Source: a virus
Strand: one strand, 5' to 3'
Length of the DNA stretch: 64,000 bases
IMG/VR virus record: IMGVR_UViG_3300042691_053485
Coordinates: 64,001 to 128,000 of that record
Positions within the stretch are counted from its first letter, which is position 1; the number at the start of each line of letters is the position of its first letter. Shown here in pieces: positions 2,928 to 54,413 of the stretch. The notes under the pieces are model-generated. The model was not told where the DNA came from. It did not search any database and worked only from the letters and a program-made list of their open reading frames with translations. Both the position numbers and the translations under genes were made by a program.

Positions 2928-3941
2928 TTAAATTTCATTAGCTTTATCTCCGATTTCAATGATTTCATCAAATAGTTTATCAGAAAATAAATCTGTCACA
3001 AAAACCGTACTCTTTCCTGAAGACATTTCAAGATTGTAGTAAACAATGCTGCCTGAATCCCCTGCACCCAACTGTCCAATTGGATTGTCTTGGTCGTCAA
3101 ACCACTCTTTTAATAGCTTTACACTAATAATTCTACCCGCAAGCAGCGCTTTAGAAAATAAATGTAAATCCGTAACTGTCGTATAAATCAGTCCCTTGGA
3201 CAAAGAATTAGTCCATAGGTTGCCTCTCTCCATATTACCCGTTTCGTCAATTATAAATCCTATCATTTTTCTAACTTCAGGCTTTCTATAGTCAACTCGA
3301 CCGCTATTTCGACATCCCGCAGGAGCGAAAATATATTCTTCTAACAATTGATACCAACGTTTTTTCATCGTTAGCTCAGCAATCGTTGTGAGGATATAGA
3401 AATTTGAATTACTGTAAAGTTCCTCTTTTCCTGCTTCAAAATAAAGGGGGTACTGACTCAATGCACGCATAACATCGACCCATCCGAAAGATTTTGGGGC
3501 ATCTGGGTTGTACGATGCGAAATCGTCGATTTCATTCATGAAATCAGGAATACCACTCTTATGCAATAAGCAGTCTCTAACTGTTATATTACTCCACGCA
3601 TTCCAATCGTAGTAGTTGATAACATTCTTTCCATCTTTTGTAGGGTCTAGCCAATCGAGAATTGGGGCATCAAGGTCAATTTTACCTAGTTCTACAAGTT
3701 TAAGAATGAGAACTTTTACATGAGTTTTACTAACACTTTGAGCTAGGAACGGAGTGTTATTTTTGATTTTGCCTCGATTCCATTGAAACTTAACAACTCC
3801 CTTTGAACCGTCTTTTTCAAAGTCAACGACCTGTAAATTCAAACTTGGAATTCTGTACTCCTCTTTGAATTGTGCTAACTCTTTTATAATATTAATCCTC
3901 TTTCGATGTTTTGTTTCCGAAAGAATTGATTTAAACTTCAT
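2928..3941 (-). CDS. Serine hydrolase, beta-lactamase/PBP-like family
   Basis: SxxK (QSVSKT), LLHKSGI, YxN (LYSNSNFYIL). Start moved to ATG 3941 (MKFKSILSE), 13 nt downstream of a TATTTATA motif. No signal peptide. Confidence 0.8.
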   Translation of the reverse strand: MKFKSILSETKHRKRINIIKELAQFKEEYRIPSLNLQVVDFEKDGSKGVVKFQWNRGKIKNNTPFLAQSVSKTHVKVLILKLVELGKIDLDAPILDWLDPTKDGKNVINYYDWNAWSNITVRDCLLHKSGIPDFMNEIDDFASYNPDAPKSFGWVDVMRALSQYPLYFEAGKEELYSNSNFYILTTIAELTMKKRWYQLLEEYIFAPAGCRNSGRVDYRKPEVRKMIGFIIDETGNMERGNLWTNSLSKGLIYTTVTDLHLFSKALLAGRIISVKLLKEWFDDQDNPIGQLGAGDSGSIVYYNLEMSSGKSTVFVTDLFSDKLFDEIIEIGDKANEI

Positions 3942-3953
3942 AGGATGTTTTCC

Positions 3954-3961
3954 TATAAATA
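3954..3961 (-). promoter_or_regulatory. TATTTATA putative late promoter
   Basis: Exact motif upstream of the serine hydrolase. Confidence 0.6.
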
Positions 3962-4008
3962 TCAAACTTCGCTGGAACTTTTTTCACCGCCGTTAAGTTG
4001 TATGAACT

Positions 4009-4890
4009 ATGACAGAAAATATAAAATTGCTTATTGAAAGTGGACTAAAACAAAATCTGTTATTAGCAGAGCAGCTTGCAATTAGTGAAGAACTTAATTT
4101 TAATAATCTATTGGAGGAAGTTTGGGATTTGGATTTTTGGATGACCAACTTAAATAAGCTTGACATTATAGTAAATTTACATAACCCTATCGATATTGGT
4201 AAGATTGACCTTGTAAATTTTCTATTTACACAGGAAGAATTAATTTTTCGTGGAGTCGAACTTTTAATGTTCTCCAAAAATATCAGAAATTTTACAAATT
4301 TACAACGTTTATATTTAAATTGTAACAAATTAATTAGCATCCCTAGCAGTATCGGTAACTTACAGGATTTACGTGTCTTAGATTTATCCAACAACAAGCT
4401 GAGCAGCCTTCCTGAATCCATCGGCAACTTGCAGAATTTGAAAGAGTTATATTTGTATGGCAACCACTTGAGTAGCCTGCCTGAATCGATTGGCAACTTG
4501 CATAATTTGGAAAGATTGTATTTAGATGGCAACAACCTAAACAGTTTGCCTGAATCCATCAGTAATTTACAGAATTTACAAGTCTTAGATTTATCCAACA
4601 ACAAGTTGAGCAGCCTGTCTGAATCAATTAATCACTTACAAAATTTGCGAGTATTATGCTTGAGTGAATCAAATGTTAATGCAATTTTAGATTGTATTGG
4701 TAATTTGCCAAATTTGGAGTCTCTAAGGTTATATCTTGAAAATCCTAGTTTGATATCTGGTGATATAACCAGTATAAAAAAATTAAAATATATACTATTT
4801 TATGACAGCAACATCCCTATCAAACATATTAAAGCCTTCAAAAGAAAGTTAAAAGGGGTGCTAATCCATGACTGTATTAATAGATGTTGA
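4009..4890 (+). CDS. Leucine-rich repeat protein, paralogue A
   Basis: 23-aa repeats LSSLPESIGNLQNLKELYLYGN; N-domain LIESG..NLLLA...EEVWDLDFW. Confidence 0.9.
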   Translation: MTENIKLLIESGLKQNLLLAEQLAISEELNFNNLLEEVWDLDFWMTNLNKLDIIVNLHNPIDIGKIDLVNFLFTQEELIFRGVELLMFSKNIRNFTNLQRLYLNCNKLISIPSSIGNLQDLRVLDLSNNKLSSLPESIGNLQNLKELYLYGNHLSSLPESIGNLHNLERLYLDGNNLNSLPESISNLQNLQVLDLSNNKLSSLSESINHLQNLRVLCLSESNVNAILDCIGNLPNLESLRLYLENPSLISGDITSIKKLKYILFYDSNIPIKHIKAFKRKLKGVLIHDCINRC

Positions 4891-4931
4891 TAGAAAATTT
4901 TCTTTTTTGATTAAGTAGAAATCTTTATTTG

Positions 4932-5561
4932 ATGGAAGCAATAAAAGGATTAATAGCAAGCGGACAAAAATCAAACCTCTTGTTAGCACAGCAATTCTGT
5001 ATCTGTGAAGGGTTAGATTTCGATGTTTTAGTAGAAGAAATTTGGGATTTAGATTTTTGGCGGACTCACTTATTTAAGCTCCGCAAAATTACTAATATCG
5101 AGGCTATAAATTTATTGTTTACCCAGAAAGAAATACACCTTTCTTTTAGGAAACTTTCAAAGGTTTCCAATAGTATTGGACTTTTAAATAATTTAAAGTT
5201 TTTGTTTTTGGATAATAATAAGTTGGTAGACATTCCAAAAAGTATTTCTAACTTGCAAAACTTACAAGTATTATTTTTAAATAATAATATTTTTGATACG
5301 ATACCTGAAAGTATTGCATATTTACAGGGTTTAAAAATATTAGGTTTAAGTGAAGCTAATGTTCAAGATATTTCAGATTGTATTACAAATTTACATAAAT
5401 TGGAGGATTTGAGATTATTTTATAATAAAATTCCTTATATTCCACAAAATATTGATACGTTGAGGTGTTTAAAATATTTATACTTTTCTGAAAACCTAAT
5501 TCCTATAGAGGAGCTTGAAGATTTGAAAAAACATCTACCTGAAACAAAAATTCTTTATTAG
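4932..5561 (+). CDS. Leucine-rich repeat protein, paralogue B
   Basis: LIASG..NLLLA...EEIWDLDFW followed by LRRs (IPKSISNLQNLQVLFLNNN). ATG at 4932. Confidence 0.88.
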   Translation: MEAIKGLIASGQKSNLLLAQQFCICEGLDFDVLVEEIWDLDFWRTHLFKLRKITNIEAINLLFTQKEIHLSFRKLSKVSNSIGLLNNLKFLFLDNNKLVDIPKSISNLQNLQVLFLNNNIFDTIPESIAYLQGLKILGLSEANVQDISDCITNLHKLEDLRLFYNKIPYIPQNIDTLRCLKYLYFSENLIPIEELEDLKKHLPETKILY

Positions 5562-5775
5562 ACAGTAAATGTCAATGTACCGATGTTTATGATAATTTTA
5601 AAAGTTATATGCTAGCTTACTGTAAGAGCTTTTTCAACTTTTTAAACTCTTTCCTTCCTTCGATTAGTGTCCTACAACTTGGATATACTCGTATCGTGTT
5701 TCCACCAAGATTATCAATCTCTTTTAGACTAATAAGCTTCTTTTGTTATTAAAACTTCAATTGAATTGCACTCAA

Positions 5776-6183
5776 TCAAGATGAGATTGAAATAAGATAG
5801 GACATGAAATTTCCACAATTTTCAGATTGAATTATTTTGTCAATTTCAGATTCTAAATTATTGATTGTTAATAGTGATGATTTTTGATTACTTACAAACT
5901 TTGCACTTAACTTTATTTGCCCATCATCTCCAACAATTTCAATATCAAATATTTCTGTGTCAAATGTTTTCTTGCTATTTAATATACGGTATATAAAATG
6001 AGCTTTTCCATGTCTCAATTCTTGCCGAATACGACCAATCAAAAGTCCATTAGAACCTTCAAAAAGACCCTTTGAGTATTCATTAAATATTCTTTTGATT
6101 TTATCCTTTGTATATTTTATTGATTTGATATTATGATTCATAAAGCTTATGTTATTGAATTTTAATGTAATCTGATGGAGCAA
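5776..6183 (-). CDS. Hypothetical protein
   Basis: 135-aa ORF, no recognisable motif; start uncertain. Confidence 0.5.
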   Translation of the reverse strand: MLHQITLKFNNISFMNHNIKSIKYTKDKIKRIFNEYSKGLFEGSNGLLIGRIRQELRHGKAHFIYRILNSKKTFDTEIFDIEIVGDDGQIKLSAKFVSNQKSSLLTINNLESEIDKIIQSENCGNFMSYLISISS

Positions 6184-6256
6184 TAATCATATAGGGATTT
6201 TGAATTGATTCATTTTTATAATCCAATGTTCAAAACATATAGGCTAATCTTTTTCC

Positions 6257-6430
6257 AAAAAATCGATATAAGCATACCGTTCTCAAAAACTTGCACAAAG
6301 TTGAACATGTCAAACATGTGCAGTTTTTGTTCCCAATTCATCGACAGGCTGAGTGCTGAAAAGCACCGAACTCCCATCTCCAAGGGCTGACACGGTGGAA
6401 CTCACCGCCAAATTTTTCAGGTTGATGCTT
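6257..6430 (-). ncRNA. Predicted omegaRNA scaffold plus guide
   Basis: Overlaps the tnpB 3' end (GCGGTGAGTTCCACCGT hairpin ... GAGAACGG). Guide predicted as the flanking TATGCTTATATCGATTTTTT (6276-6257). 5' boundary approximate. Confidence 0.5.
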
Positions 6431-7674
6431 GCATTCAAATCCCTGTCAATTTCGAGGTGACAGAAATTGCAAGCATATTTTCTCTCAGAAAGTTTCAAAC
6501 TTTGTTTTTTGTTGCCACAACTTGAGCACAACTTGCTGCTGGCAAAGAAGGTGTTCGCCAAAATGACTTCTCCCCCATACCATGCTTTTTTGTACAACAG
6601 TTGTCTTTTGAACTCAAAAAATCCACCGTCAAGGATTGCTGATGCAAGCTTTTTGTTTTTCACCATGTTCTTGACCTTCAAATCCTCTATCACCACCACT
6701 TCAAAGTTTTTGGCGAGATAGGTTGTCAGTTTGTGAAGACAGTCCTTTCTTACATTTGCAACTGCGGCATGAATCTTTGCAAGCTTTTGAACAGATTGTT
6801 TGTAGTTGTTGCTTTGGCTTTCAGCTCCTCTAACAAATCTTCTGCTCACCTCTTTTTGTTGCCTTCTGAGTTTCTCCTTTGCCTTTTTGTAAGGCTTGAT
6901 ATTTTCGAATGTTTCTCCATTACTGAGTGTTGCCAAGGTTTTAACACCTAAGTCAACACCAACGACAAGTTCTTTCTTTTTTGTGATAGCCGGAATGTGT
7001 TCGACTCTGAATGAGATGAACCAGTGGTCAGCAGTCCTGCTGATTGTGCAGTTCTTTATGGACTTAACATCTAGTGTTTCGGATAATTTTACCCATCCAA
7101 TTTTTGGTAGTTTGACTTTATTCCCTTCTATCCTTATGCCATGTTTGTTACTATTTTCCAGATAGAATGAATCGCCTCTTCCTTTCTTCTTGTATCTTGG
7201 TAGTCCTTGCAGACCTGTTGAGGTCTTAACACCATTTACAATTTTATAGTGAAGAAGCTTGTATCCTGATTGCTTTTGCAGGCGGTGAAAGTTCTTGTAT
7301 GCTGTCTCAAGATTCCTCAGTGCTTGTTGTGGGGCGCATTTTGACACCTCATAATACCAAGCATGTTCCTTTTTCACCGTTGCTACAAGCCACTTATGAA
7401 GTGTGATGGCTGATGGGGTTGATTTCCCGTCTTTAAATAAGTCATTGCAATAGCTCAAAGCCTGATTGTAGGCATGACGAGCTGTGCCTGCATGTTTTGC
7501 AAACATCTGCTCCTGCAACCTTGTAGGCTCTAACCTTATCTTCAATGACTTGTATTGCATTTTCTGCTTATTTCAATCTGCTATAACCCGAAAAACTTAT
7601 ACACCATGTGGCAATTAATATACCAATGTTTAGAAATGTTACACTTTGTTCAAATATTTTTTAACTGCTGTCAG
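6277..7674 (-). mobile_element. Non-autonomous tnpB-only IS607/IS200-605-like element
   Basis: tnpB with no tnpA nearby. Right end ...AAGTTTTTGAGAACGG at 6277. Left end inferred at GG|CTGA (7675/7674); left boundary tentative. Confidence 0.6.
6310..7560 (-). CDS. tnpB: TnpB RNA-guided endonuclease
   Basis: HTH (KIRLEPTRLQEQMFAKHAGTARHAYN), RuvC I VGVDLGVK, RuvC II VIEDLKV, Zn ribbon CSSCG...CNFC, RuvC III DRDLNA; the D-E-D triad is intact. Confidence 0.95.
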   Translation of the reverse strand: MQYKSLKIRLEPTRLQEQMFAKHAGTARHAYNQALSYCNDLFKDGKSTPSAITLHKWLVATVKKEHAWYYEVSKCAPQQALRNLETAYKNFHRLQKQSGYKLLHYKIVNGVKTSTGLQGLPRYKKKGRGDSFYLENSNKHGIRIEGNKVKLPKIGWVKLSETLDVKSIKNCTISRTADHWFISFRVEHIPAITKKKELVVGVDLGVKTLATLSNGETFENIKPYKKAKEKLRRQQKEVSRRFVRGAESQSNNYKQSVQKLAKIHAAVANVRKDCLHKLTTYLAKNFEVVVIEDLKVKNMVKNKKLASAILDGGFFEFKRQLLYKKAWYGGEVILANTFFASSKLCSSCGNKKQSLKLSERKYACNFCHLEIDRDLNASINLKNLAVSSTVSALGDGSSVLFSTQPVDELGTKTAHV

Positions 7675-8219
7675 CCTTTTATTTTGTCTATTTCCTCATT
7701 TGAAACTTCTTCACTCAAATGAAGCTTCAAATTTTTCATTTGGGCTTCTGTTATCACAAGAACCTTTCGTTTTTCAAATGATTCATAGTTCACATTGTTT
7801 GTTGAGAGGTCATTTGAGGACATTGACTTATACAGTTTTGGTGTCCTCACTTTTGGAGTCTCTGAACCGTCTTTTGTATGGCTTCTTATGTAGGCATTGG
7901 ATTCGCCGGATTCCTTTTTTGCCTTTTTTGAGCTTTCGACTCGATTTCTTGCCGAACCCAATGTGGAATTTATCCAGCTTTCTAAGGAGCTTCCGCCATT
8001 CAAGAGATATAACGTCTTATTTCCTTTGTTTTTTTCCAAAATATGTTTGATGTTTTTCATATTTTGGTAGGATAACTTACCTACCGAAATGAGATTCTTC
8101 AAACGGACATATCCTTCCGAATGCTTGTCTCCTTTGTAGTTGTTAAGAATCTCTTGAAGATTTTTCAACAGTTCTTCGGGAAGGGAAAATGTTTTTCCTT
8201 GGAGGTTACTATTTGCCAT
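7671..8219 (-). CDS. Hypothetical phage protein, probably C-terminally clipped by the IS insertion
   Basis: 182 aa, coupled to the upstream LRR gene; C-terminal VITE..LSEE motifs; its stop lies at the inferred IS left end. Confidence 0.75.
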   Translation of the reverse strand: MANSNLQGKTFSLPEELLKNLQEILNNYKGDKHSEGYVRLKNLISVGKLSYQNMKNIKHILEKNKGNKTLYLLNGGSSLESWINSTLGSARNRVESSKKAKKESGESNAYIRSHTKDGSETPKVRTPKLYKSMSSNDLSTNNVNYESFEKRKVLVITEAQMKNLKLHLSEEVSNEEIDKIKG

Positions 8220-8976
8220 GTATTTCTCTTATTACTCTTTGTTCATTGTATAATAAACGACATCCACTTGGGATTAGTGTTTCAAGCGTTTTAGCTTCTT
8301 CAGTTGTTGCTTCGCCAATTTCAATGGTTCTCAGTGTAGGGGGTAGTTTTGGAAGGGATTTTTGTAAATCTTCTATTGGTATTTTAGAATCTCTTAAATC
8401 TATCCTATTCAGATTCATACCTTCAAGTGCTACCGGGAATTTCGTAAGCCTGACTCCTGTTATACTTAAAGTTTTAAGATTATGAAGTTGTTTAATTTTA
8501 GGTGAGATGGTTGTAATATCACTACAAGCCTTAATATACAGGTGCTTTAAAGATTCAATGGCAAAAATTTCATCAGGTATTTCCTTTAGATATAAGTTGA
8601 AAAGAGTTATATCTGAGATTTTTTTCAAGTGAAGTAGTTGGGCATAATCAATTTTTGGGGAGGTATAACTTATTTCTATTCTTGGGGAATTTAAAAGTCT
8701 CATAATAAAATCTACATAATCACCATTTCTATATGGCATCATAGGCGGTCGAACAACGTATGTTAATAGTTCTACAGGCTTAACTAGTTCTCTATAGTTA
8801 ATTCCCATCCCATCTGCAATCTCTATTGCAAGCCTTATGTTATCCTCTTGACCTGACAAAATCAATCGTTTGATATTTTCTTCAGGATTGAAGTCATCTT
8901 CATTTTCATTTATTAAAACTTCTTTGGCAGATTTTAACTGCTTTTCGGTTATTATGACCTTTATATTTTTGACCAT
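8209..8976 (-). CDS. Divergent LRR protein, paralogue C
   Basis: Leader IITEKQL..LINENE, N-domain LILSGQEDNIRLA, LRRs EIPDEIFAIESLKHLYI and ISPKIKQLHNLKTLSI. Confidence 0.85.
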   Translation of the reverse strand: MVKNIKVIITEKQLKSAKEVLINENEDDFNPEENIKRLILSGQEDNIRLAIEIADGMGINYRELVKPVELLTYVVRPPMMPYRNGDYVDFIMRLLNSPRIEISYTSPKIDYAQLLHLKKISDITLFNLYLKEIPDEIFAIESLKHLYIKACSDITTISPKIKQLHNLKTLSITGVRLTKFPVALEGMNLNRIDLRDSKIPIEDLQKSLPKLPPTLRTIEIGEATTEEAKTLETLIPSGCRLLYNEQRVIREIHGK

Positions 8977-9718
8977 TGTTTAAAATTATTTAAATCGCTT
9001 CTGATTTGTTTTTCTTCACAAAATTCAAATAGACGGTTTATCGTTTCTTGAGTTAAGGGGTTTCCCTTTATGAAAAGCCACTCAAGTGTTGATAGTTTGA
9101 AGAGTGATTCCGGCACGGATGTTAGCTTATTATTTTCAAAATCTAATGGGTTAAATTTTCCATTAAGTGAATATTTTCTGGAATTGACGTTAACTTATTT
9201 CTACCTAATCCCAATTGCTGTAAAGATTTTAATTTAACAATTGAAGTAGGTAGAGATACAATATCATTAGATTCTAATAATAGTGACTTTAAATCGTTTA
9301 AGTCGCCAATTGATTCCGGCAGTTTAGAAATTGCATTAGCACGCAAATCAATACTATTCAAGTGTGGTAAATATCCAATACTATTTGGGATTTTAGATAT
9401 TCCCTTGTCCGCAAGGTCTATTGTTTTAAATCCTTTTAGCTTATAAAGAATATCAGTGGTAGTTTTTGCAGTTATGTCATACATGAAAAAATGTTTTATC
9501 CAGAATTTTAATTCCCAGACTTCAGAAAATAGTGTGTCAAAATCAAAACCAAGTCCTTGGGCGACAGATTTTGCAAGTTCAATATTGTCCGGTGTTCCGG
9601 ATTTTAGAAGGCTAGTGAGCTTTGATTTTATATCAAACTCTTCCTCCTCTTGTATGTTCCAAAAGAAGCCCTCATCCAAACGCTTCTTCATTATTTTATT
9701 TATTTTGCTTATGTCCAT
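8961..9718 (-). pseudogene. LRR paralogue D with a 1-nt frameshift
   Basis: ORF stops at CAT-TAG (9143-9145). The -1 frame continues LDFENNKLTSVPESLFKLSTLEWLFIKGNPL...QWSKI to TAA at 8961. Confidence 0.8.
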
Positions 9719-9733
9719 TTTTTTAATTGATTT

Positions 9734-10519
9734 TTAAAATTCCACTTCACAATTTGGAAGCATAACCTTCAACCTCTTTATTACATTTGTGGGTATCGTA
9801 TTGCCGGACAAATACAACCCTTTCAAATTCTGCAAGTTGACGATAGATTCCGGAAGGCTGCTCAGGTTGTTGTTATACAAGCGCAACCATTCCAAATTCT
9901 GCAAGTTGCCGATGGACTCAGGAAGGCTGCTCAGGTTGTTGTCTTCCAAATACAACTCTTGCAAATTCTGCAAGTTGCCGATGGATTCCGGAAGGCTGCT
10001 CAGGTTGTTGTTAGTCAAGCGCAACGCTTGCAAATTCTGCAAGTTGCCGATGGATTCAGGAAGGCTGCTCAGCTTGTTGTTACCCAAATTCAACCCTTGC
10101 AAATTCTGCAAGTTGCCGATGGGTTCTGGAAGACTGCTCAGGCTGTTGTTATACAAGCGCAACACTTGCAAATTCTGCAAGTTGCCGATGGATTCAGAAA
10201 GTTCCGACAATCCTTTGCTGTAAAGGTTTATGCTAGTTTTTGACAGCAAAAAACGGAGTGCTTCCACCTTGCTTGTCCGGGGAATACCATCAAGATTATC
10301 CATCCAAAACTGCAAGTCAAAAAGCTCATTTAGCAAAGCATCAATGTCAAACTCCTGACCCTGTGCTACCATGATGGCAAGTTCAATATTATCAGGTATT
10401 CCGGATTTTAGAAGGCTGGTGAGCTTTGATTTTATATCAAACTCCTCCTCTTGTATATTCCCAAAGAAGCCTTCATTTAAACGCTTCTTCATTATTTTAT
10501 TTATTTTGCTTATGTCCAT
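9734..10519 (-). CDS. LRR protein, paralogue E
   Basis: About six near-identical 69-bp/23-aa repeats LSSLPESIGNLQNLxxLxLxxN. Confidence 0.92.
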   Translation of the reverse strand: MDISKINKIMKKRLNEGFFGNIQEEEFDIKSKLTSLLKSGIPDNIELAIMVAQGQEFDIDALLNELFDLQFWMDNLDGIPRTSKVEALRFLLSKTSINLYSKGLSELSESIGNLQNLQVLRLYNNSLSSLPEPIGNLQNLQGLNLGNNKLSSLPESIGNLQNLQALRLTNNNLSSLPESIGNLQNLQELYLEDNNLSSLPESIGNLQNLEWLRLYNNNLSSLPESIVNLQNLKGLYLSGNTIPTNVIKRLKVMLPNCEVEF

Positions 10520-10534
10520 TTTTTTTATGTATTT

Positions 10535-11323
10535 TTAAAATTCCACTTCACAATTTGGAAGTATAGCCTTCAACCTCTTTATTACATTTGTTGGTATCGT
10601 ATTGCCGGACAAATTCAACTCTTCCAAATTCTGCAAGTTGCCGATGGATTCCGGAAGGTTGCTCAGCTTGTTGTTACCCAAATTCAACAATTCCAAATTC
10701 TGCAAGTTGACGATGGATTCAGGAAGGCTGCTCAATAGGTTATTAAACAAATACAACCCTTGCAAATTCTGCAAGTTGCCAATGGATTCAGGCAGGCTGC
10801 TCAGCTTGTTGCCACTCAAATCCAACTCTTTCAAATTCTGCAAGTTACCGATAGATTCCGGAAGATGGCTTAGGCTATTGTGATTCAAATTCACAGATTT
10901 CAAATTCTGCAAGTTTCCAATCGATTCAGGCAGGCTGCTCAGGTTGTTGTTATCCAAATACAACACTTTCAGCTTCTGCAAGTTGCCGATAGATTCAGGC
11001 AGTGCTGACAATCCTTTGCGGGAAAGGTCTATGATAGCTCTTGACAACAAAAAACGGAGAGCTTCAGATTTGCTTGTTTGGGGAATGTTATCAAGATTTT
11101 TCATCCAAAACTTCAAGTTATAAATCTCTTCTGCCAAGGCATCAATATCAAAATCTTGCCCTTGAGCTATCATGAACGCAAGCTCAATGTTATCAGGTGT
11201 TCCGGATTTTAGAAGGCTGGTGAGTTTTGACTTTATATCAAACTCATCTTCCTCTTGTATGTTCCCAAAGAAGCCTTCATTCAAACGCTTCTTCATTATT
11301 TCGTTAAGTTTATTTAAATTCAT
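10535..11323 (-). CDS. LRR protein, paralogue F
   Basis: Same architecture as E; shared C-cap SGNTIPTNVIKRLK..LPNCEVEF. Confidence 0.92.
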   Translation of the reverse strand: MNLNKLNEIMKKRLNEGFFGNIQEEDEFDIKSKLTSLLKSGTPDNIELAFMIAQGQDFDIDALAEEIYNLKFWMKNLDNIPQTSKSEALRFLLSRAIIDLSRKGLSALPESIGNLQKLKVLYLDNNNLSSLPESIGNLQNLKSVNLNHNSLSHLPESIGNLQNLKELDLSGNKLSSLPESIGNLQNLQGLYLFNNLLSSLPESIVNLQNLELLNLGNNKLSNLPESIGNLQNLEELNLSGNTIPTNVIKRLKAILPNCEVEF

Positions 11324-13116
11324 TTGCAGTTAAAAATTTCTCTGTCTCTATTGTATTTTTGTTGTTCAAGTTGGAAATTGCAACGAATTTCGTGTAGGCA
11401 AAGTGCTCTATTGTGAAGTCTGAAATCTGCAATTCCACCAATAAAAGAACCTGCAAAGGCATCTTCAATGTATCCACATCGACCATTGTGAGGTGGGATA
11501 TTAATACAATTAGTTACACACCAAGAACTTACGCCGTTACCAATCAAAACTGCATCAAGTTTGTCGAGAGACGCAAGAACTTCAATTTTTAGTCCTTGCC
11601 CACATCCCTTTGTGTATGGTGTCAGCTTTATTTGCCCATGTCTTCTAGGTATAACCATCTCTAAAAATGTTTCAATAAGTTCGGGTTCGGAAATCGAAAG
11701 CGGCGGACTCTTAAATTCGATGCCATTTACAATAACACCGTTGAAAACACATGGATTCACAAATGATGTCACATAATTACAGGCTGTGTAACCTGTTAAT
11801 CCATACCCCTCAGTTAAACCGGAAAATGTGTAGCTTTCGAGAAGTCCCTGTGTGCCCCCACCTATTGAGATATTGAATGGCACTCCAAGTTGTTTATCCG
11901 GATGTTCATCAAGTTCGTATGGAATGAATTCGGGGAATCCATCAAGCTTCACTTTTAAGAAACCATCTACAAATATAGATAGTTCCCCAAAAGCAATTCT
12001 ATATCCTATACATTCTGTAGTTTCGTATGGTTTGAATCTATAGGCTACATGATGCCACTTATCATCTTCGATAATACCCGGCTTGCTATAAAATTCTTCA
12101 ACAATAGGAGTTCCCGAAAACATAATCGACTCGCCAACTAACTTGCATTCTCCTGTCGTTGTTAGGATTCTAACACCTATTTCACCTTCATCTGTCACTC
12201 GAAATCCCATTGCATTGTTTATAACACCCTCACAACAATCTGAAAAATCACCTGTGGAATTTGTGCTTCCTGTCGAACAAAAAACATTTCTTCTTGTATA
12301 GTATAGGAATGAGTTTCCGCTTGGTTGGAAGGCTTCTTCTGTGACAGGGGTTGCAAGAGGTATTCCTGTACAAGTAGTGAGTCCTGAAATGGCAGGAAAC
12401 ATACAAAACTTATTTTCAGCCCTTGTTCCCCAAAAATAAAAAATACCCTTATTGTCAGGATATACTTCGTTTAATTGGTACTTATCAGGACATGTTGATT
12501 TTTGTGTAACTTCAGTTTCCCAAATTTCAGTAATAATGATGTCTTCACCTGAAATATTGACAATTTCGGTTGTTTCCCCTGTTACAATTACTGTTTCACC
12601 TGTTGGGCAATTAGACTTCTTCAGCCAAAACTCTTTAGTCCAACCGAACTGATAAAAATTCGGAAGAACATTATATTCATACCCATGAAGCCTATAAAAC
12701 CCTTGGAAAAATCCCCCACAAAATTGGATGTGTTCAGGTTCTACCCCATAAGCAGGTATGTATTCCATTTCATAGCAATAGACATCACCTGAAACGCGCG
12801 GCAAACAAAATGTTGTATCCCCTGAAGGGTTGAAAGTTTCTCCGGTCCAAGCATCAACAAATCTGTTATCGTAGCCATTTAGCCCAATATCACAAATATC
12901 ACCATCAAAAGAAGTTGCGTCACTCCATTTGAAGTTGTCACTACAAATTCTTTCGAGGTTATTGAAGTCAAATTGGGCAATAACATCTCCTGTTATAAGG
13001 ACATTACAATTGAAACAATCTGTTTGTTTGTCCATTGAAAGATAAAAATCCCAATAGTTACACCCTAAAAGCTTCAAATCGAAGTGATTGTTTATGTTCT
13101 TTTGAATATTACTCAC
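11320..13116 (-). CDS. Cys-rich LamG/concanavalin-like protein, probably virion-associated
   Basis: DDKWHHVAYRF, FVDGFL, GSFIGGIADFRLHNRALC; GTG start after a TATTTATA motif. Confidence 0.7.
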   Translation of the reverse strand: MSNIQKNINNHFDLKLLGCNYWDFYLSMDKQTDCFNCNVLITGDVIAQFDFNNLERICSDNFKWSDATSFDGDICDIGLNGYDNRFVDAWTGETFNPSGDTTFCLPRVSGDVYCYEMEYIPAYGVEPEHIQFCGGFFQGFYRLHGYEYNVLPNFYQFGWTKEFWLKKSNCPTGETVIVTGETTEIVNISGEDIIITEIWETEVTQKSTCPDKYQLNEVYPDNKGIFYFWGTRAENKFCMFPAISGLTTCTGIPLATPVTEEAFQPSGNSFLYYTRRNVFCSTGSTNSTGDFSDCCEGVINNAMGFRVTDEGEIGVRILTTTGECKLVGESIMFSGTPIVEEFYSKPGIIEDDKWHHVAYRFKPYETTECIGYRIAFGELSIFVDGFLKVKLDGFPEFIPYELDEHPDKQLGVPFNISIGGGTQGLLESYTFSGLTEGYGLTGYTACNYVTSFVNPCVFNGVIVNGIEFKSPPLSISEPELIETFLEMVIPRRHGQIKLTPYTKGCGQGLKIEVLASLDKLDAVLIGNGVSSWCVTNCINIPPHNGRCGYIEDAFAGSFIGGIADFRLHNRALCLHEIRCNFQLEQQKYNRDREIFNCK

Positions 13117-13133
13117 ACTTTTAAATATTTAAT

Positions 13134-13141
13134 TATAAATA
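13134..13141 (-). promoter_or_regulatory. TATTTATA putative late promoter (LamG-LRR operon)
   Basis: Exact motif 18 nt upstream of 13116. Confidence 0.6.
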
Positions 13142-13191
13142 GCTACAAAAAGCTGTGAAATTCGATGAATTTCAAGATTAGTGTTTTACAG

Positions 13192-13314
13192 TTAGACTGC
13201 CGGCGTGCTACACACCTCTATCGAGTACTGAAATTCCCCGACTTCTTGTGATATGACATATTTACATTGTTGCAGCTGCTTTTTAGTTTTTTTGACCTCT
13301 TGTTTCTCTGTCAT
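13192..13314 (-). CDS. Possible 40-aa small protein
   Basis: MTEKQEVKKTKKQLQQCKYVISQEVGEFQYSIEVCSTPAV; a TATTTATA motif at 13401-13408 lies on the same strand. Confidence 0.35.
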   Translation of the reverse strand: MTEKQEVKKTKKQLQQCKYVISQEVGEFQYSIEVCSTPAV

Positions 13315-13474: not shown

Positions 13475-13993
13475 ATGAGCAAGATTTTAAAAATTTCCGA
13501 AGAAATGGGTAATAAACTAATGAAAGAGATTATCGATGCCGATGGCTCAATCATTAATGGTGATAAGAACGACAGCGACACCGAAATTCGGACAAATTAT
13601 TATAAGAAAAGTGGAAGACCACAAACTTCTGATGATTTCGCAAAAGAGGCAGGGCAAGATAGCAAATGGTACTATTATCATCGTGGGTATTCCTATGGTG
13701 TTGCAGAGAGTGAGATAAAGGAAGAGGAAATTATCAGTGGTAAGAATGATACAGATATTTTGAATAAAGATATAACTGTTATACCAAACCTTAAAGAACT
13801 TACTAAAAGCTATCAAAAGCCCGATTTGGAGGCGATTGTGAAGAAAATGATAAATCTTGTGAATAGTTTTGCTTCAGATGATATTGAAGGGCAAGATATA
13901 CAGGCAATTGTTTTAAAGGAGATAATTAAGAAATTGCCGTTAAATGGGTTGAGACCCGAACAGAAGCGCGAGCTAAAATCGTTATTCAAATAA
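13475..13993 (+). CDS. Hypothetical protein with ISEE leader
   Basis: 172 aa, begins MSKILKISEE. Confidence 0.75.
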   Translation: MSKILKISEEMGNKLMKEIIDADGSIINGDKNDSDTEIRTNYYKKSGRPQTSDDFAKEAGQDSKWYYYHRGYSYGVAESEIKEEEIISGKNDTDILNKDITVIPNLKELTKSYQKPDLEAIVKKMINLVNSFASDDIEGQDIQAIVLKEIIKKLPLNGLRPEQKRELKSLFK

Positions 13994-14355
13994 TGGAATT
14001 TTTTATCAGACAAAAAGCCACAATGCCTAAACTAGAGCTTGAATTGGTAGAGGACGGTTTTGGCAAAAACTCCAACTATGAGGAGAAAATACAAAATGCA
14101 GTCGTCACATTTTCTATGGAAAATGTTGAAAACTGCCAAAGGGTGATTATTTGCCGTCCGATGGATGTAATTGAAGACGATTGCGGTTCACCTTGTGGTA
14201 ATTGTAATCGAAAATTCAAGTTGGTTTATCCTTGGAGGGAACGTGACACAAAAAATGCAGGTAGGTTCATTGGTAAGGTCGAGATAGACTTTTTAGATGG
14301 CTGTGGTAAACTGATTGTACCAATCAAAGAAGATTTATTTATCAATATTATATGA
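13993..14355 (+). CDS. BppU-like Ig-fold virion protein
   Basis: FFIRQKAT.P.LEL...AVVTFSM...YPW..RDT..AGRFIGKVEIDF pattern. Confidence 0.55.
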   Translation: MEFFIRQKATMPKLELELVEDGFGKNSNYEEKIQNAVVTFSMENVENCQRVIICRPMDVIEDDCGSPCGNCNRKFKLVYPWRERDTKNAGRFIGKVEIDFLDGCGKLIVPIKEDLFINII

Positions 14356-15344
14356 TTCAAAAGAAGTTTTTAATTTCTGAGGAAATGTCCAAAAGAATTT
14401 TTGAAGGTTCTTTGGATTTTCAGAAACAGCGAATTGCAACAAATGTTTACCATGAGATTCTCGATTTCCTTATAGAGGTCAATCAAACAATTGATATGTC
14501 AAAAGATGGGACATCTCATGAGATAGTATTTCGATTGGATTCATACAATGGGTTTGTGCTTAGTTTAGACTTTGTTTTAAGTAACAGTAGTGCAAACGGC
14601 TCATTTACCCCACCTGATACTATCACACTTTATTTAAAACCATTAGCAGAAACTGAAACATCGACATATCGTTATCGAACTCTTCATAACTTATTTTCAA
14701 ATTCTGATATAAGGTCAACTTTTATCCATGAGTTTACACACCTTATGGATGAAACACGTGCCAATAATAAAATTTTTGACTTGGGGTATCTAAAATTTTA
14801 TAGAAGTTTAGAACAACTAGCTGAAGAATCTGAAACGGCTTATGAAGGATTCTATGTAGAATATTTAGATTTATTAAAACAGGTTGAGAGAATTTATAAA
14901 AAATATAAAAAGGGTGGGAGGATTAAAAGTAATATTTATCTTCCAATGGTGGAAAAACCGAATCGTGAGGATTATGAAGATGAGGAAGAATTTAACTATG
15001 TTAGAGAAAGATATATTGACTCATTTAAAATCTACCTTTTTCATAATGCAGAAGTAAATGCTAGATTTCATTCGGTTGTCAATGAGATTATTTTTAGTTT
15101 AATTTCAGGCTTAAACGATTACAAAAAGAGAGGTGATAGTGAGGAATTAGAATTATGGGCGGAGTTTTTTGTCCATAAAGACTTGAAGTCAGTAATGTCT
15201 GATTTTAAATCTAAAATCAGACGTAAATTTAATAATCTTCTTCCAAGTCCCGAAATCATGAAAAAGCTTTATGGCCGATTCTATGTTATTCTGAGTAAAT
15301 TATCAAAGGCGTATAAAGATTCAGGAGTTGAACTTTTCAAATAA
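14352..15344 (+). CDS. Zincin-like metallopeptidase
   Basis: FIHEFTH with downstream AEVNAR; leader KKFLISEE. Confidence 0.7.
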   Translation: MIQKKFLISEEMSKRIFEGSLDFQKQRIATNVYHEILDFLIEVNQTIDMSKDGTSHEIVFRLDSYNGFVLSLDFVLSNSSANGSFTPPDTITLYLKPLAETETSTYRYRTLHNLFSNSDIRSTFIHEFTHLMDETRANNKIFDLGYLKFYRSLEQLAEESETAYEGFYVEYLDLLKQVERIYKKYKKGGRIKSNIYLPMVEKPNREDYEDEEEFNYVRERYIDSFKIYLFHNAEVNARFHSVVNEIIFSLISGLNDYKKRGDSEELELWAEFFVHKDLKSVMSDFKSKIRRKFNNLLPSPEIMKKLYGRFYVILSKLSKAYKDSGVELFK

Positions 15345-25346: not shown

Positions 25347-25354
25347 TATTTATA
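25347..25354 (+). promoter_or_regulatory. TATTTATA putative late promoter (sheath)
   Basis: Exact motif 11 nt upstream of the ATG. Confidence 0.65.
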
Positions 25355-28300: not shown

Positions 28301-28595
28301 AAGAATGTTACTTTATGCACAACGCTTAATCGAAGATGTAGGATTGCCATTATTGTTTGACCAAAATGATGAAACAGTTCGCCGTAAATTCGAAAGTAAA
28401 GTTAATCCGATTTTGGCTAACATTAGAAATGAGAGAGGTATTTTCGCATTCGAAGTCCAACTCGACCGTTCAAATGAATCATTCAATTCAAATGAAATGA
28501 AGGGTAAAATTGGATTGCAACCGATAAGAACTCTTGAGTATATCAACATAGAATTCGTGCTAACTCCGGCTGGAGCTTCTTTCTCTGAAATTTAA
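25365..28595 (+). CDS. Tail sheath protein
   Basis: PAIKFTETD..T...LGIAGEFPKGRAF; WFAGAGFERG, LYEGRVNPI, GNKTLQ..SALNRINVRRML, LQPIRTLEYINIEFVLTPAG. Confidence 0.95.
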   Translation: MAVNKPNLAPAIKFTETDNTFTTRNFGVTSLGIAGEFPKGRAFTPIAIDTTTLLKQVFGDSNPCKFEGTQQPIYEGVYIAKQFLKESDQLFVSRILGLTGYDAGDAWGISFGAALDPATVATTATQTFSASITYVNGQAGSVTFSNTILQDLYDAGEITDAMLGGVSLTTGETVAVGNKFIGNCEYFVGARFTMDVTARTEQFICITGETSITDTYEVITETQDCIVIYSGGTVTYDSTFVITITNPIVLQNEGNNELTIIPSGVLTIIGGTITHTTDGLTVVNGTIYLPNGDIITGGEYKICDLEGNTAVYDCDTIDGINFTITTGTTLIPTTVTSGVTQQVVSQIPSGLVQLDFTGTVIELSGVPYAQYDNMVVALLRSYAQYNGDEILNFNVFGNQIQIESIDGGVIKPLDDFIIKGTDSSNNSFEYNVSLDKSKSNFIGRVFGNFIPCCKSNLPLYLEELWTSMFDYLYSNELIYCIKPSVCYINTLKDYKEPYQGAMTPWLVSELRGNRVFRLFRFHTFSDGNAANQDVKISITNIRPDAKTFDVQVRAFNDTDKKPVILESFARVTLREQDNNFIGRRIGTVDGNHVLQSKYIMVELAAECLDESFPAGFEGYPVRDYDCMLPPTIVYKTQYNITDRVRQVYLGLNDTLGYDIDMFEYKGKPNDPDLNFWTGTTKGFHLDSSAASVQIDGVGTVEFETGPAAFKNENDLVGTQYEQIIARKFTLMPFGGFDGWDIHRKTRTNTDLYAISGTLGQKGLTSGAFDVYSSENINNGQAVINSDFYAYLEGIKSLSNRLEFRINLLAVPNVNTAENSNLVEETIEMCEQERCDTFYVPTTLDTDVAGQVLRVQDVVGAIDGLFDSSYAGTYFPWGQFLDEVNNVYVWLPPTAEVMRTFALTDKVRRPWFAGAGFERGVTEFKQARKKLTQNEMDTLYEGRVNPISTFKQADGTSPVVIFGNKTLQIADSALNRINVRRMLLYAQRLIEDVGLPLLFDQNDETVRRKFESKVNPILANIRNERGIFAFEVQLDRSNESFNSNEMKGKIGLQPIRTLEYINIEFVLTPAGASFSEI

Positions 28596-29686
28596 TGAAA
28601 CAATTTATAATTGAACAATTACGGTCTATTGAGAAAAATCAAATGAATGAAGATTCTTTTGATTTTTCTCAGGTCGACCAATGGATAGATAGTATGCCCA
28701 AAAGCGAGTTGAATAAGACTCGTAAAGAATTTGCATCTCTTGTAAGTAGTAAATTCGAAGGAGGGTTCAGAAAATATCTCCAAGCGAAGTTGATGAAATC
28801 TAATAAATATGTAGAGGTCATTAAGCTCGTTATCAATTATATGCAAAATAAATCCAAGGAAAATTATAATGCCATCTTTGAATTGATTGGTATTCCAATG
28901 CTTGACTATTTTGTACAAAAAACATTCGGAAAGGATAGTTTTCTTGGGAGAATTAAGCAGATAACACCATTCCTTAAAAAGGTTTCAACAGGTAACGGGA
29001 AATTGGATATGGCAATTTATAATGCCATGGCAGAGGCACTAGAATTGAAAACTGTCAGAGATACATTCGAAAGAGATATGAAGAATGTATTGGATGATAA
29101 AATGGATTCTCTTGAAACTGACCAAGCATTTTGGGACTTTTTTGAGCCAACTCAACAACCGCAACTACCTTCAGGTGATACCAATGAATCGATAAATGAG
29201 GTTTTTGGGATTAATACTGCAATAAAACAAGGAATATCTAATCGACTTGATAGATTGAAAGCGGTCTTTAGTAGCCGAGAAACTAAGAATAAGTTCAAAA
29301 TTTTGGATAGTATTACCAAGTTTATGCCAAACATAAAAACCGACTTGAAAAGAAAGATAAAGGAGCGGTTATTTGACTTAAACTACGATGATATTTCAGA
29401 CATGGTTGAACGCCTCAATGTATCAAAAGCCGCAAAAATTGTGACTCTTCCAGTTATGCAAAATATCATCAAGAATTCTCAGGAATTATACTTTGGAGAA
29501 CCTTCTTTTAATGATTTTATTGATATCGTAAAGGGCGTATTCACAGATAAAGTGGTGTTAGCATCAGTTCAAAAGGGAATTGAAAACTTCCTAAGAGAAA
29601 TGGTTAAAAAGGCGAGAGAAGAACAGCAGAAAAAGGGAGGCTTTAAAACTTCAAAATCAAAATCTTACGACTATGATAGATTGTAG
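28595..29686 (+). CDS. Hypothetical helical protein between sheath and tube
   Basis: 363 aa; QMNEDS and SINEV motifs. Confidence 0.75.
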   Translation: MKQFIIEQLRSIEKNQMNEDSFDFSQVDQWIDSMPKSELNKTRKEFASLVSSKFEGGFRKYLQAKLMKSNKYVEVIKLVINYMQNKSKENYNAIFELIGIPMLDYFVQKTFGKDSFLGRIKQITPFLKKVSTGNGKLDMAIYNAMAEALELKTVRDTFERDMKNVLDDKMDSLETDQAFWDFFEPTQQPQLPSGDTNESINEVFGINTAIKQGISNRLDRLKAVFSSRETKNKFKILDSITKFMPNIKTDLKRKIKERLFDLNYDDISDMVERLNVSKAAKIVTLPVMQNIIKNSQELYFGEPSFNDFIDIVKGVFTDKVVLASVQKGIENFLREMVKKAREEQQKKGGFKTSKSKSYDYDRL

Positions 29687-31767: not shown

Positions 31768-31775
31768 TATTTATA
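31768..31775 (+). promoter_or_regulatory. TATTTATA putative late promoter (tape measure)
   Basis: Exact motif. Confidence 0.6.
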
Positions 31776-54405: not shown

Positions 54406-54413
54406 TATTTATA
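54406..54413 (+). promoter_or_regulatory. TATTTATA putative late promoter
   Basis: Exact motif. Confidence 0.6.

What the first reader, a model, noticed from the sequence alone, without database searches (positions are those of the whole stretch)
4009..11323. Six-member phage LRR family with a shared N-terminal module: an expanding binder repertoire
Seen: six LRR genes all contain L..SG...N..LA...(E..W.L.FW) before 23-aa LRRs, with different repeat numbers. Four are in a tandem array co-oriented with a LamG gene behind a TATTTATA motif and carry an acidic (L/I)NE leader. Two on the opposite strand lack the leader. Established: LRR solenoids are protein-binding scaffolds and are uncommon in tailed phages. 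Inference: a gene accordion of adaptors (constant docking module plus variable binder) in packaged and cytoplasmic versions, perhaps inhibitors of host defence proteins or eukaryote-facing effectors analogous to phage ankyrins.
Basis: partly seen in the sequence, partly recalled or inferred. Interest (0 to 1): 0.8.

Follow-up and report, generated by a model that had tools for sequence, protein, structure and literature searches.

The report
Phage LRR binder family with bacterial cousins
An uncultured T4-like jumbo phage carries at least 17 related genes (six in this window) for small leucine-rich-repeat binding proteins that share an undescribed helical head; the same design occurs as tandem gene arrays in a few Cytophagales bacteria, and most phage copies have a leader that looks like a signal for packaging into the capsid.

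Summary
All six ORFs are real members of one family: a helical N-module with L..SG...N..LA, then 23-residue LRRs, then a C-cap. The 184.5-kb contig holds 17 such genes, plus three non-LRR proteins with the same module.

The scan had already reported this family on this genome (e1-5820204). New here:
- **Not phage-specific.** The module-plus-LRR design is collinear with leaderless chromosomal genes of Cytophagales bacteria. These sit in tandem arrays of up to 11 genes and were found in 8 of 201 genomes sampled.
- **An independent domain.** The module also ends HExxH proteins, stands alone, and forms tandem repeats. It has no Pfam family and no clear PDB match.
- **Support for the packaging idea.** The leader ends in (L/I/V)-x-E, the contig encodes a T4 gp21-type prohead protease, and the LamG-like/LRR block follows the TATTTATA motif that also precedes the terminase, protease and sheath genes.
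- **Two damaged members.** Gene 4 is frameshifted. A seventh member (ORF 7671-8219) appears to be cut by a TnpB insertion element.

Best reading (about 0.5): a diversifying LRR binder repertoire, mostly loaded into the capsid and injected like T4 internal proteins. The targets are unknown. The "constant docking module" idea is only partly supported.

The parts
4009..4890 (+). Leaderless family member, 293 aa: N-module at residue 2, about 7 LRRs, long C-terminal tail
   Evidence: 34% identical over 228 aa, collinear, to Cytophagales protein P0139
4929..5561 (+). Leaderless family member, 210 aa (probable ATG start at 4932); closest paralog of 4009-4890
   Evidence: sister to 4009-4890 in the module tree, support 100/95
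6273..7680 (-). IS200/IS605-type element with TnpB (ORF 6310-7560). Its left end supplies the stop codon of ORF 7671-8219.
   Evidence: Pfam OrfB_IS605, Cas12f1-like TNB and HTH domains; three copies about 90% identical in the contig define its ends
7671..8219 (-). 182-aa ORF: probable N-terminal remnant of a seventh family member. It ends at ...EEIDKIKG, which matches the first helix of an N-module, and contains an internal VLVITE motif.
   Evidence: 55% identical to residues 1-164 of P0202, a 389-aa phage protein that continues into N-module + LRR
8209..8976 (-). Divergent leadered member, 255 aa (leader MVKNIKVIITE, module, degenerate LRRs)
   Evidence: near-identical cluster representative P0122
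8961..9718 (-). Leadered member broken by a frameshift. The ORF stops at 9143; the -1 frame continues with one more LRR and the C-cap down to 8961. The shift site is A_AAT_TTA at 9152-9158.
   Evidence: the related protein P0042 is intact at 247 aa
9734..10519 (-). Leadered member, 261 aa (MDISKINKIMKKRLNE leader, acidic linker, module, 7 LRRs, C-cap)
10535..11323 (-). Leadered member, 262 aa; the protein that was modelled
   Evidence: AF2 pLDDT 91: helix 3-18 and linker at low confidence, helices 30-94 cap seven LRRs, C-cap helix 245-254; LRR matches in PDB
11320..13116 (-). 598-aa LamG-like candidate heading the co-oriented block; overlaps the next gene by 4 nt
   Evidence: No Pfam or PHROG hit; Atlas feature scores 0.93-0.94 to LamG clusters; a 56% identical homolog lies next to LRR genes in phage contig L024
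13134..13141 (-). TATTTATA (gene strand), a late-promoter-like motif 17 nt before the block's first start codon
   Evidence: 25 occurrences in gene orientation within 60 nt of starts, including terminase large subunit, head protease and tail sheath, against 10 for the reverse word

Best explanation
The window holds six intact or damaged members, plus one insertion-truncated remnant, of a family with at least 17 genes in this uncultured T4-like jumbo myophage. Each protein has a helical N-module of about 65 residues that caps a short solenoid of 23-residue LRRs, followed by a C-cap. The repeat scaffold is nearly constant, while five concave-face positions per repeat vary, so the proteins are a repertoire of binders (shown). 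The design is homologous along its whole length to leaderless, signal-peptide-less LRR genes that form tandem arrays in the chromosomes of some Cytophagales bacteria, the probable host lineage. The module was therefore inherited with the scaffold and was not invented for the virion (shown; the direction of transfer is unresolved). Thirteen of the 15 complete phage copies carry an extra N-terminal leader ending in (L/I/V)-x-E, then an acidic linker. Inferred: as with T4 internal proteins and Alt, the leader targets the protein to the prohead core, the gp21-type protease removes it, and the mature binder is injected with the DNA to bind host proteins before any phage gene is expressed. The two leaderless copies would do the same job from inside the cell. 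What they bind is unknown; host defence proteins are one guess.
For: Family and architecture. AF2 model of 10535-11323, pLDDT 91. Foldseek finds Leptospira LRR proteins, SHOC2 and RSU1. Variability is concentrated at repeat positions 5, 6, 8, 10 and 11 (2.6-3.6 bits, against 2.2 bits or less at every other position and under 1.1 bits at the ten conserved core positions). Paralogs are 80-93% identical in nucleotides in the head and 70-88% in the LRR part. Bacterial homologs: P0139 sits in a chromosomal context (PNPase, sigma-70, ComEC); its genome has 15 module hits; 8 of 201 Cytophagales and 1 of 301 Bacteroidota genomes sampled have hits; arrays of 3 to 11 genes; collinear 34% identity. Packaging: Peptidase_S77 (gp21-type) at 73.7 bits and PHROG head maturation protease. 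The capsid protein has ALVE|S 18 residues before PMVRR. The leader pattern occurs at 26 of 189 N-termini against 5.4% at internal Met, p=1.3e-5. TATTTATA precedes the terminase, protease and sheath genes and this block. The genes from 13116 down to 7671 are packed with overlaps or gaps of 15 nt or less. T-even internal proteins are diverse defence-countering proteins that share only a capsid targeting sequence (PMC3012670).
Against: There are no proteomic, transcript or cleavage data. The leader pattern is loose and also matches 5% of internal sites. These leaders are 11-16 residues and share no sequence with the T4 capsid targeting sequence. In P0202 and ORF 7671-8219 the same V-I-T-E element lies about 160 residues inside the protein, which does not fit a purely N-terminal targeting signal. 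No target is known. The bacterial relatives have no consistent neighbours that hint at a function. The contig is an estimated 68% of the genome and the host is not established.
Confidence: 0.5

Rival explanations
1. The proteins are ordinary intracellular accessory binders made during infection and never packaged. The N-terminal extension is just an amphipathic helix plus acidic linker (for regulation, solubility or a partner), and its (L/I/V)-x-E ending is coincidental.
For: The leader pattern is loose (5.4% background). The leader helix and linker are modelled at low confidence. The same element is internal in P0202. Bacterial relatives function without it.
Against: The same leader type heads more than 20 unrelated accessory ORFs. 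A gp21-type protease and an L-x-E site in the capsid protein are present. The block follows the late-gene motif.
Confidence: 0.25
2. Host mimicry: the phage copies use the shared N-module to occupy the partner of the host's own module-LRR proteins (decoy or dominant-negative), or to dock onto other module-bearing phage proteins such as the HExxH protein, so that the LRR part redirects that partner.
For: The module is shared with Cytophagales chromosomal families. It occurs at the C-terminus of leader-bearing HExxH proteins in this and other phages, in stand-alone small proteins, and as about 13 tandem repeats in P0123, so it can stack on copies of itself.
Against: No partner is known. The conserved residues (SG turn, N cap, buried L/A/W) look structural. 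In the model the module packs on the first LRR like a cap.
Confidence: 0.12
3. The proteins are virion surface or adsorption accessories: LRR proteins displayed on the particle together with the LamG-like protein, binding host envelope structures.
For: They neighbour a LamG-like protein in two phages and follow a late-type motif.
Against: There is no attachment domain for tail, fibre or capsid. In L024 the LamG-like gene is divergently oriented. The bacterial homologs lack signal peptides and look cytoplasmic. Seventeen copies are scattered in four or more clusters away from the tail genes.
Confidence: 0.08
4. The proteins are eukaryote-facing effectors, analogous to phage ankyrins of symbionts.
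For: Only the general precedent that LRRs bind eukaryotic proteins; the nearest solved LRRs include SHOC2 and RSU1.
Against: The closest full-length relatives are chromosomal genes of Cytophagales. No secretion signal or effector domain was found by Pfam.
Confidence: 0.02

Closest known systems
T4 internal proteins IPI/IPII/IPIII and Alt (capsid-targeted, gp21-processed, injected)
   Same: Short N-terminal leader ending in L/I-x-E. A gp21-family protease is encoded in the same genome. The cargo is diverse and fast-evolving with only the leader in common. Probable late expression.
   Different: No sequence similarity to the T4 proteins or their targeting sequence. The cargo here is a multigene LRR family with a bacterial counterpart. 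Packaging and cleavage are not shown. The same leader-like element can be internal (P0202).
Leaderless N-module+LRR tandem arrays of Cytophagales bacteria (e.g. MCP4520452.1 in GCA_024232295.1; arrays in G001, G358, G373)
   Same: Same module, same 23-residue LRR type, same order of parts, no signal peptide, tandem paralogs with varying repeat number and some LRR-less short members.
   Different: No leader or acidic linker. The arrays are orthologous one-to-one between two related genomes, so they are stable rather than turning over. Their function is equally unknown.
Leptospira LRR proteins (LIC11098, LIC12234, LIC10831), SHOC2 and RSU1
   Same: Best structural matches to the repeat part (Foldseek E 1e-15 to 1e-9, 41-47% identity in the repeats).
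   Different: The matches cover only the LRR part (158-188 of 262 residues in the best rows). None was seen to cover the N-module, and the module alone finds no clear solved relative.
LRR genes of GenBank phages (Leptospira phages LE1-type, Listeria phages, uncultured 462-kb phage LR756500.1 with 19 LRR places)
   Same: Phage-borne LRR repeats, in one case also in many copies.
   Different: tblastn with the leader plus module found nothing in 50,697 records, so those LRR genes lack this head.

Membership tests
Leucine-rich repeat proteins (Pfam LRR_8, LRR_14, LRR_4) | Profile match above the curated cut-off | tested here: met
   Five of six ORFs pass (e.g. LRR_14 at 54-104 bits against a cut-off of 40). 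8209-8976 stays below all cut-offs.
Leucine-rich repeat proteins (Pfam LRR_8, LRR_14, LRR_4) | Regular LxxLxLxxN repeat forming a curved solenoid | tested here: met
   73 units of 23 residues; AF2 strand/helix periodicity at pLDDT 98; Foldseek matches to solved LRR proteins.
T4-type capsid-targeted, prohead-protease-processed internal proteins | N-terminal leader ending in L/I-x-E | tested here: met
   RLNE, RLDE or IITE at residues 11-16 in four of six window genes and 13 of 15 complete contig genes.
T4-type capsid-targeted, prohead-protease-processed internal proteins | gp21-family prohead protease in the same genome | tested here: met
   PF03420 at 73.7 bits (cut-off 27) at contig 36260-36754; PHROG head maturation protease.
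T4-type capsid-targeted, prohead-protease-processed internal proteins | Actual cleavage and presence inside virions | not testable with these tools
   Uncultured phage; no proteome available.
T4-type capsid-targeted, prohead-protease-processed internal proteins | Late expression | tested here: inconclusive
   The block follows TATTTATA, which it shares with the terminase, protease and sheath genes. No transcript data.
Cytophagales N-module+LRR family | N-module profile match plus collinear LRR domain | tested here: met
   Bacterial hits at 47-57 bits in G001; 34% identity over 228 aa between 4009-4890 and P0139; architecture table.
DGR-diversified or programmed (VLR-like) binder systems | Reverse transcriptase with template repeat | tested here: not met
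   No RVT_1 match in the 184.5-kb contig. The missing third of the genome was not seen.
LRR-NEL (IpaH/SspH) or other LRR-enzyme effectors | C-terminal catalytic domain after the LRRs | tested here: not met
   Pfam finds only LRR families. The proteins end in a 20-residue C-cap.
LamG / concanavalin-like lectin (PF13385) for ORF 11320-13116 | Profile or fold match | tested here: inconclusive
   No Pfam or PHROG hit. Atlas feature scores are 0.93-0.94 to LamG clusters, with structural TM 0.33-0.36 by query on a poor model.

The most novel reading that the evidence does not exclude
The N-module is a homotypic stacking or docking domain shared by host and phage. Injected phage LRR binders would use it either to plug into the pathway served by the host's own module-LRR proteins (molecular mimicry), or to recruit the leader-bearing HExxH metalloprotease-like protein that ends in the same module. 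The second option would give a modular, retargetable system for binding and destroying host proteins.
Probability: 0.1. Interest if true: 0.85.

Novelty: new variant of a known kind. Interest (0 to 1): 0.6.

Why it matters
T4 internal proteins show that phages inject proteins ahead of gene expression to disarm host defences, but only a few small, unrelated examples are known. If this reading holds, one phage would pack a diversifying repertoire of a generic binder scaffold borrowed from, or shared with, its host lineage. That would be a phage-side counterpart to repeat-based recognition families and a source of natural inhibitors of bacterial proteins. Separately, the N-module is an unnamed domain: 87 clusters at 50% identity, no Pfam family and no clear solved relative. 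It links phage and Cytophagales LRR families and deserves a family definition.

Tried and rejected
- **No close cultured relative.** Megablast of 4000-13200 against GenBank phages found nothing. tblastn with leader+module against the same set found nothing.
- **Related 63.7-kb contig not reachable.** Look-ups of P0001 and P0003 returned 'not on record', so full copy-number comparison with the nearest relative was not possible.
- **Module fold not placed.** Modelled alone (pLDDT 88.5), its best VIA Z was 5.2 and Foldseek E was above 3, which is within the noise for helical bundles. Atlas feature search gave no usable hit, and the atlas fold library was not installed.
- **DGR rejected.** No reverse transcriptase in the contig.
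- **Sigma-70 promoter scan uninformative.** 39 sites against 34.9 expected.
- **IS element gives no host link.** Its DNA against 201 Cytophagales genomes gave only short pieces, mostly 64-84% identical (three pieces of about 30-45 nt at 90-95%).
- **Direction of transfer unresolved.** In the module tree (76 columns) the main phage clade has support 94/87, the bacterial grouping only 82/79, and the root is arbitrary. The tree does reject the idea that the leaderless phage copies are closer to bacteria, because they nest in the phage clade.
- **No shared neighbours in bacteria.** The flanks of the bacterial arrays have no partner gene in common.
- **Literature.** A jumbo-phage comparative review and a recent huge-phage preprint contain no mention of LRR.
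Full report
**Setting.** The window is bases 64001-128000 of a 184,534-bp IMG/VR virus record, estimated 68% complete. The record encodes the following:
- a tail sheath, DnaB-type helicase, ribonucleotide reductase and family-B polymerase;
- a large terminase, portal, T4-type major head protein and head maturation protease;
- a Peptidase_S77 (gp21-type) match at 73.7 bits.

It has no close cultured relative. Megablast found nothing, and the polymerase gives only 26% identity to Salinibacter phages.

**The observation.**
- All six ORFs exist as described.
- Five pass Pfam LRR cut-offs. 8209-8976 is a divergent member with sub-threshold LRR hits.
- The residues L, S, G, N, L, A of the motif are invariant in the six-way alignment.
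- The strict motif occurs in 13 ORFs of the contig.
- A 48-position profile finds 15 LRR ORFs, a truncated one at the contig start and three non-LRR ORFs.
- The wider A5 profile plus an LRR-motif count gives 17 LRR members in at least four clusters.
- Both contig ends lie inside different family members, so the assembly probably broke in this repeat family and the true number is higher.
- Only the two + strand window genes lack a leader. A related 63.7-kb contig also has both forms: P0001 and P0003 are leadered, P0006 and P0046 are leaderless.

**Anatomy.**
- The AF2 model of 10535-11323 has pLDDT 91. Helix 3-18 and the acidic stretch 19-29 are at low confidence. Five short helices at 30-94 (pLDDT about 90) pack on the first repeat. 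Seven strand-helix LRR units follow, then a C-cap helix at 245-254.
- Foldseek matches cover the repeats only: Leptospira LRR proteins, SHOC2 and RSU1.
- Across 73 repeats, positions 5, 6, 8, 10 and 11 carry 2.6-3.6 bits of entropy, while the LSSLPESIGN part is nearly fixed. The family therefore has a constant scaffold and a variable concave face.
- Type-A paralogs are 80-93% identical in nucleotides over leader plus module and 70-88% over the LRRs. This fits recent duplication or gene conversion.
- No reverse transcriptase is present, so a DGR does not explain the variation.

**What the module is.**
- It has no Pfam hit.
- Modelled alone (pLDDT 88.5, four helices), it finds nothing convincing in the PDB: Z is at most 5.2 and Foldseek E is above 3.
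- A profile search of 1.84 billion representatives found 87 clusters at E of 0.001 or better. By my pattern counts, 24 have a leader, 55 start with the module, 5 carry it internally or at the C-terminus, and 3 have tandem copies.
- In this contig the module also closes a leader-bearing 444-aa protein with an HEMAH motif (5210-6544) and opens two small non-LRR proteins.
- P0165 and P0146 repeat the architecture of a leader-bearing domain with an HExxH-like motif (HECSH) followed by a C-terminal module in other phages. P0123 has about 13 tandem units of roughly 50 residues built on the module's first helices.
- The module is therefore an autonomous helical unit that can stack on itself, not merely an LRR cap.

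**Bacterial counterpart.**
- P0139 is annotated as an LRR protein of a Cytophagales MAG. It lies among PNPase, sigma-70 and ComEC genes.
- That genome has 15 module hits, some beside SSB, CysS and leuA-like genes.
- Hits occur in 1 of 301 Bacteroidota genomes sampled (the centre genome itself) and in 8 of 201 Cytophagales genomes sampled. Two genomes of 9-10 Mb have 20 and 26 hits.
- The fetched regions show head-to-tail arrays of 3 to 11 leaderless module(+LRR) genes with differing repeat numbers and some short LRR-less members.
- The leaderless phage gene 4009-4890 aligns collinearly with P0139 at 34% identity over 228 residues.
- In a 76-column tree the main phage group, including the leaderless genes, forms a clade with support 94/87. 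The G001 and G358/G373 groups are separate, and the G358 and G373 array members pair one-to-one. The direction of transfer is unresolved.

**Packaging hypothesis.**
- Leaders of the form M + basic/hydrophobic residues + (L/I/V)-x-E head 26 of 189 ORFs, against 5.4% at internal Met positions (p=1.3e-5). They occur on unrelated proteins.
- The capsid protein has ALVE|S shortly before PMVRR. From memory, this corresponds to the T4 gp23 maturation region.
- On the gene strand, TATTTATA lies 3-34 nt (one case at 42 nt) before 25 start codons. These include the terminase, protease, tail sheath and the 598-aa ORF heading the LRR block, and no -35 box is conserved. This resembles the single-element T4 late promoter.
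- The genes from 13116 down to 7671 are tightly packed.
- T-even internal proteins are described as diverse anti-restriction proteins that share only a capsid targeting sequence (PMC3012670).
- These points make injection plausible. Cleavage, packaging, timing and targets are all inferred.

**Damage in the array.**
- Gene 4 stops at 9143. The -1 frame continues in perfect LRR register to the C-cap, ending at 8961. The shift site, A_AAT_TTA, is both a homopolymer-type indel hotspot and a canonical slippery heptamer.
- ORF 7671-8219 is 55% identical to the first 164 residues of P0202, which continues into module plus LRR.
- In the window, the TnpB element (about 6273-7680; three copies about 90% identical in the contig) begins at the last codons of that ORF, at a shared AAAGGC flank. 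The reading frame is cut exactly where the module's first helix would start. No continuation lies beyond the element.

**Comparison and verdict.**
- LRR genes are rare in deposited phages: 6 of 50,697 records, none with this head. Two broad jumbo-phage surveys do not mention them.
- The scan had already described the family on this genome (e1-5820204) and the leader idea (e1-5820207, e1-5820219).
- This report adds the bacterial homologs, the module's independent occurrences, the protease and late-motif context, and the two damaged members.
- I rate it a new variant of a known kind: T4-style leader-tagged accessory proteins whose cargo is a host-related LRR repertoire.

Noticed in passing
window 6273-7680 (-); contig copies at 41936-43186 (+) and 170132-171343 (+): Three copies, about 90% identical, of an IS200/IS605-type TnpB element, all inserted after an AAAGGC flank. 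A fourth, different TnpB lies at contig 11205-12398. Three of the four sit beside LRR clusters.
   Followed up: partly
window 9152-9158 (-): The frameshift in LRR gene 4 falls on A_AAT_TTA, a canonical -1 slippery heptamer. A pseudogene, an assembly error and a programmed shift cannot be told apart here.
   Followed up: partly
L026:5210-6544 (-) = contig 5210-6544: A 444-aa protein with an MNIKNFIKKQLNE leader, an HEMAH motif and a C-terminal N-module, with no Pfam or PHROG hit. P0165 and P0146 show the same layout in other phages.
   Followed up: partly
P0123 (1242 aa, on a 167-kb JGI contig): About 13 tandem repeats of roughly 50 residues resembling the module's first helices (TKDNLPLAE.LCTDKELDF), followed by a large C-terminal region with an HD-like motif.
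   Followed up: no
whole contig; e.g. window 25347-25354, 31768-31775, 54406-54413: (A/C)TATTTATA, without a conserved -35 box, lies 3-34 nt (one case at 42 nt) before 25 start codons, including late structural genes. It is probably this phage's late promoter, and some sites follow terminator-like hairpins.
   Followed up: partly
contig ORFs listed (e.g. window 2928-3965, 13475-13993, 14352-15344, 28595-29686): More than 20 unrelated ORFs begin with a basic/hydrophobic leader ending in (I/L/V)x(S/T/N)E, such as MRILVSE, MKVLISE or MKTFIRKILRE. The same leaders occur on many metagenomic module proteins.
   Followed up: partly
contig 1-414 and 183928-184534: Both contig ends lie inside different LRR family genes, so the assembly probably broke in the repeat family and the copy number is a lower bound.
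   Followed up: no
window 3993-4604 (-), 9789-10223 (+), 9959-10243 (+), 10602-10883 (+): Long repetitive ORFs antisense to the LRR genes (FCKLPMDSGRLL...) are by-products of the repeat periodicity, not genes.
   Followed up: no
GenBank LR756500.1 (uncultured phage, 462 kb): This huge phage has 19 places matching the LRR part of the query but no match to the leader+module, so it may hold an independent LRR expansion.
   Followed up: no
L013 (Logan SRR31655987 contig, 48.6 kb) 7734-12035: A phage-like contig with six LRR genes within 4.3 kb, four of them head to tail, one of which (P0206) carries the N-module.
   Followed up: no
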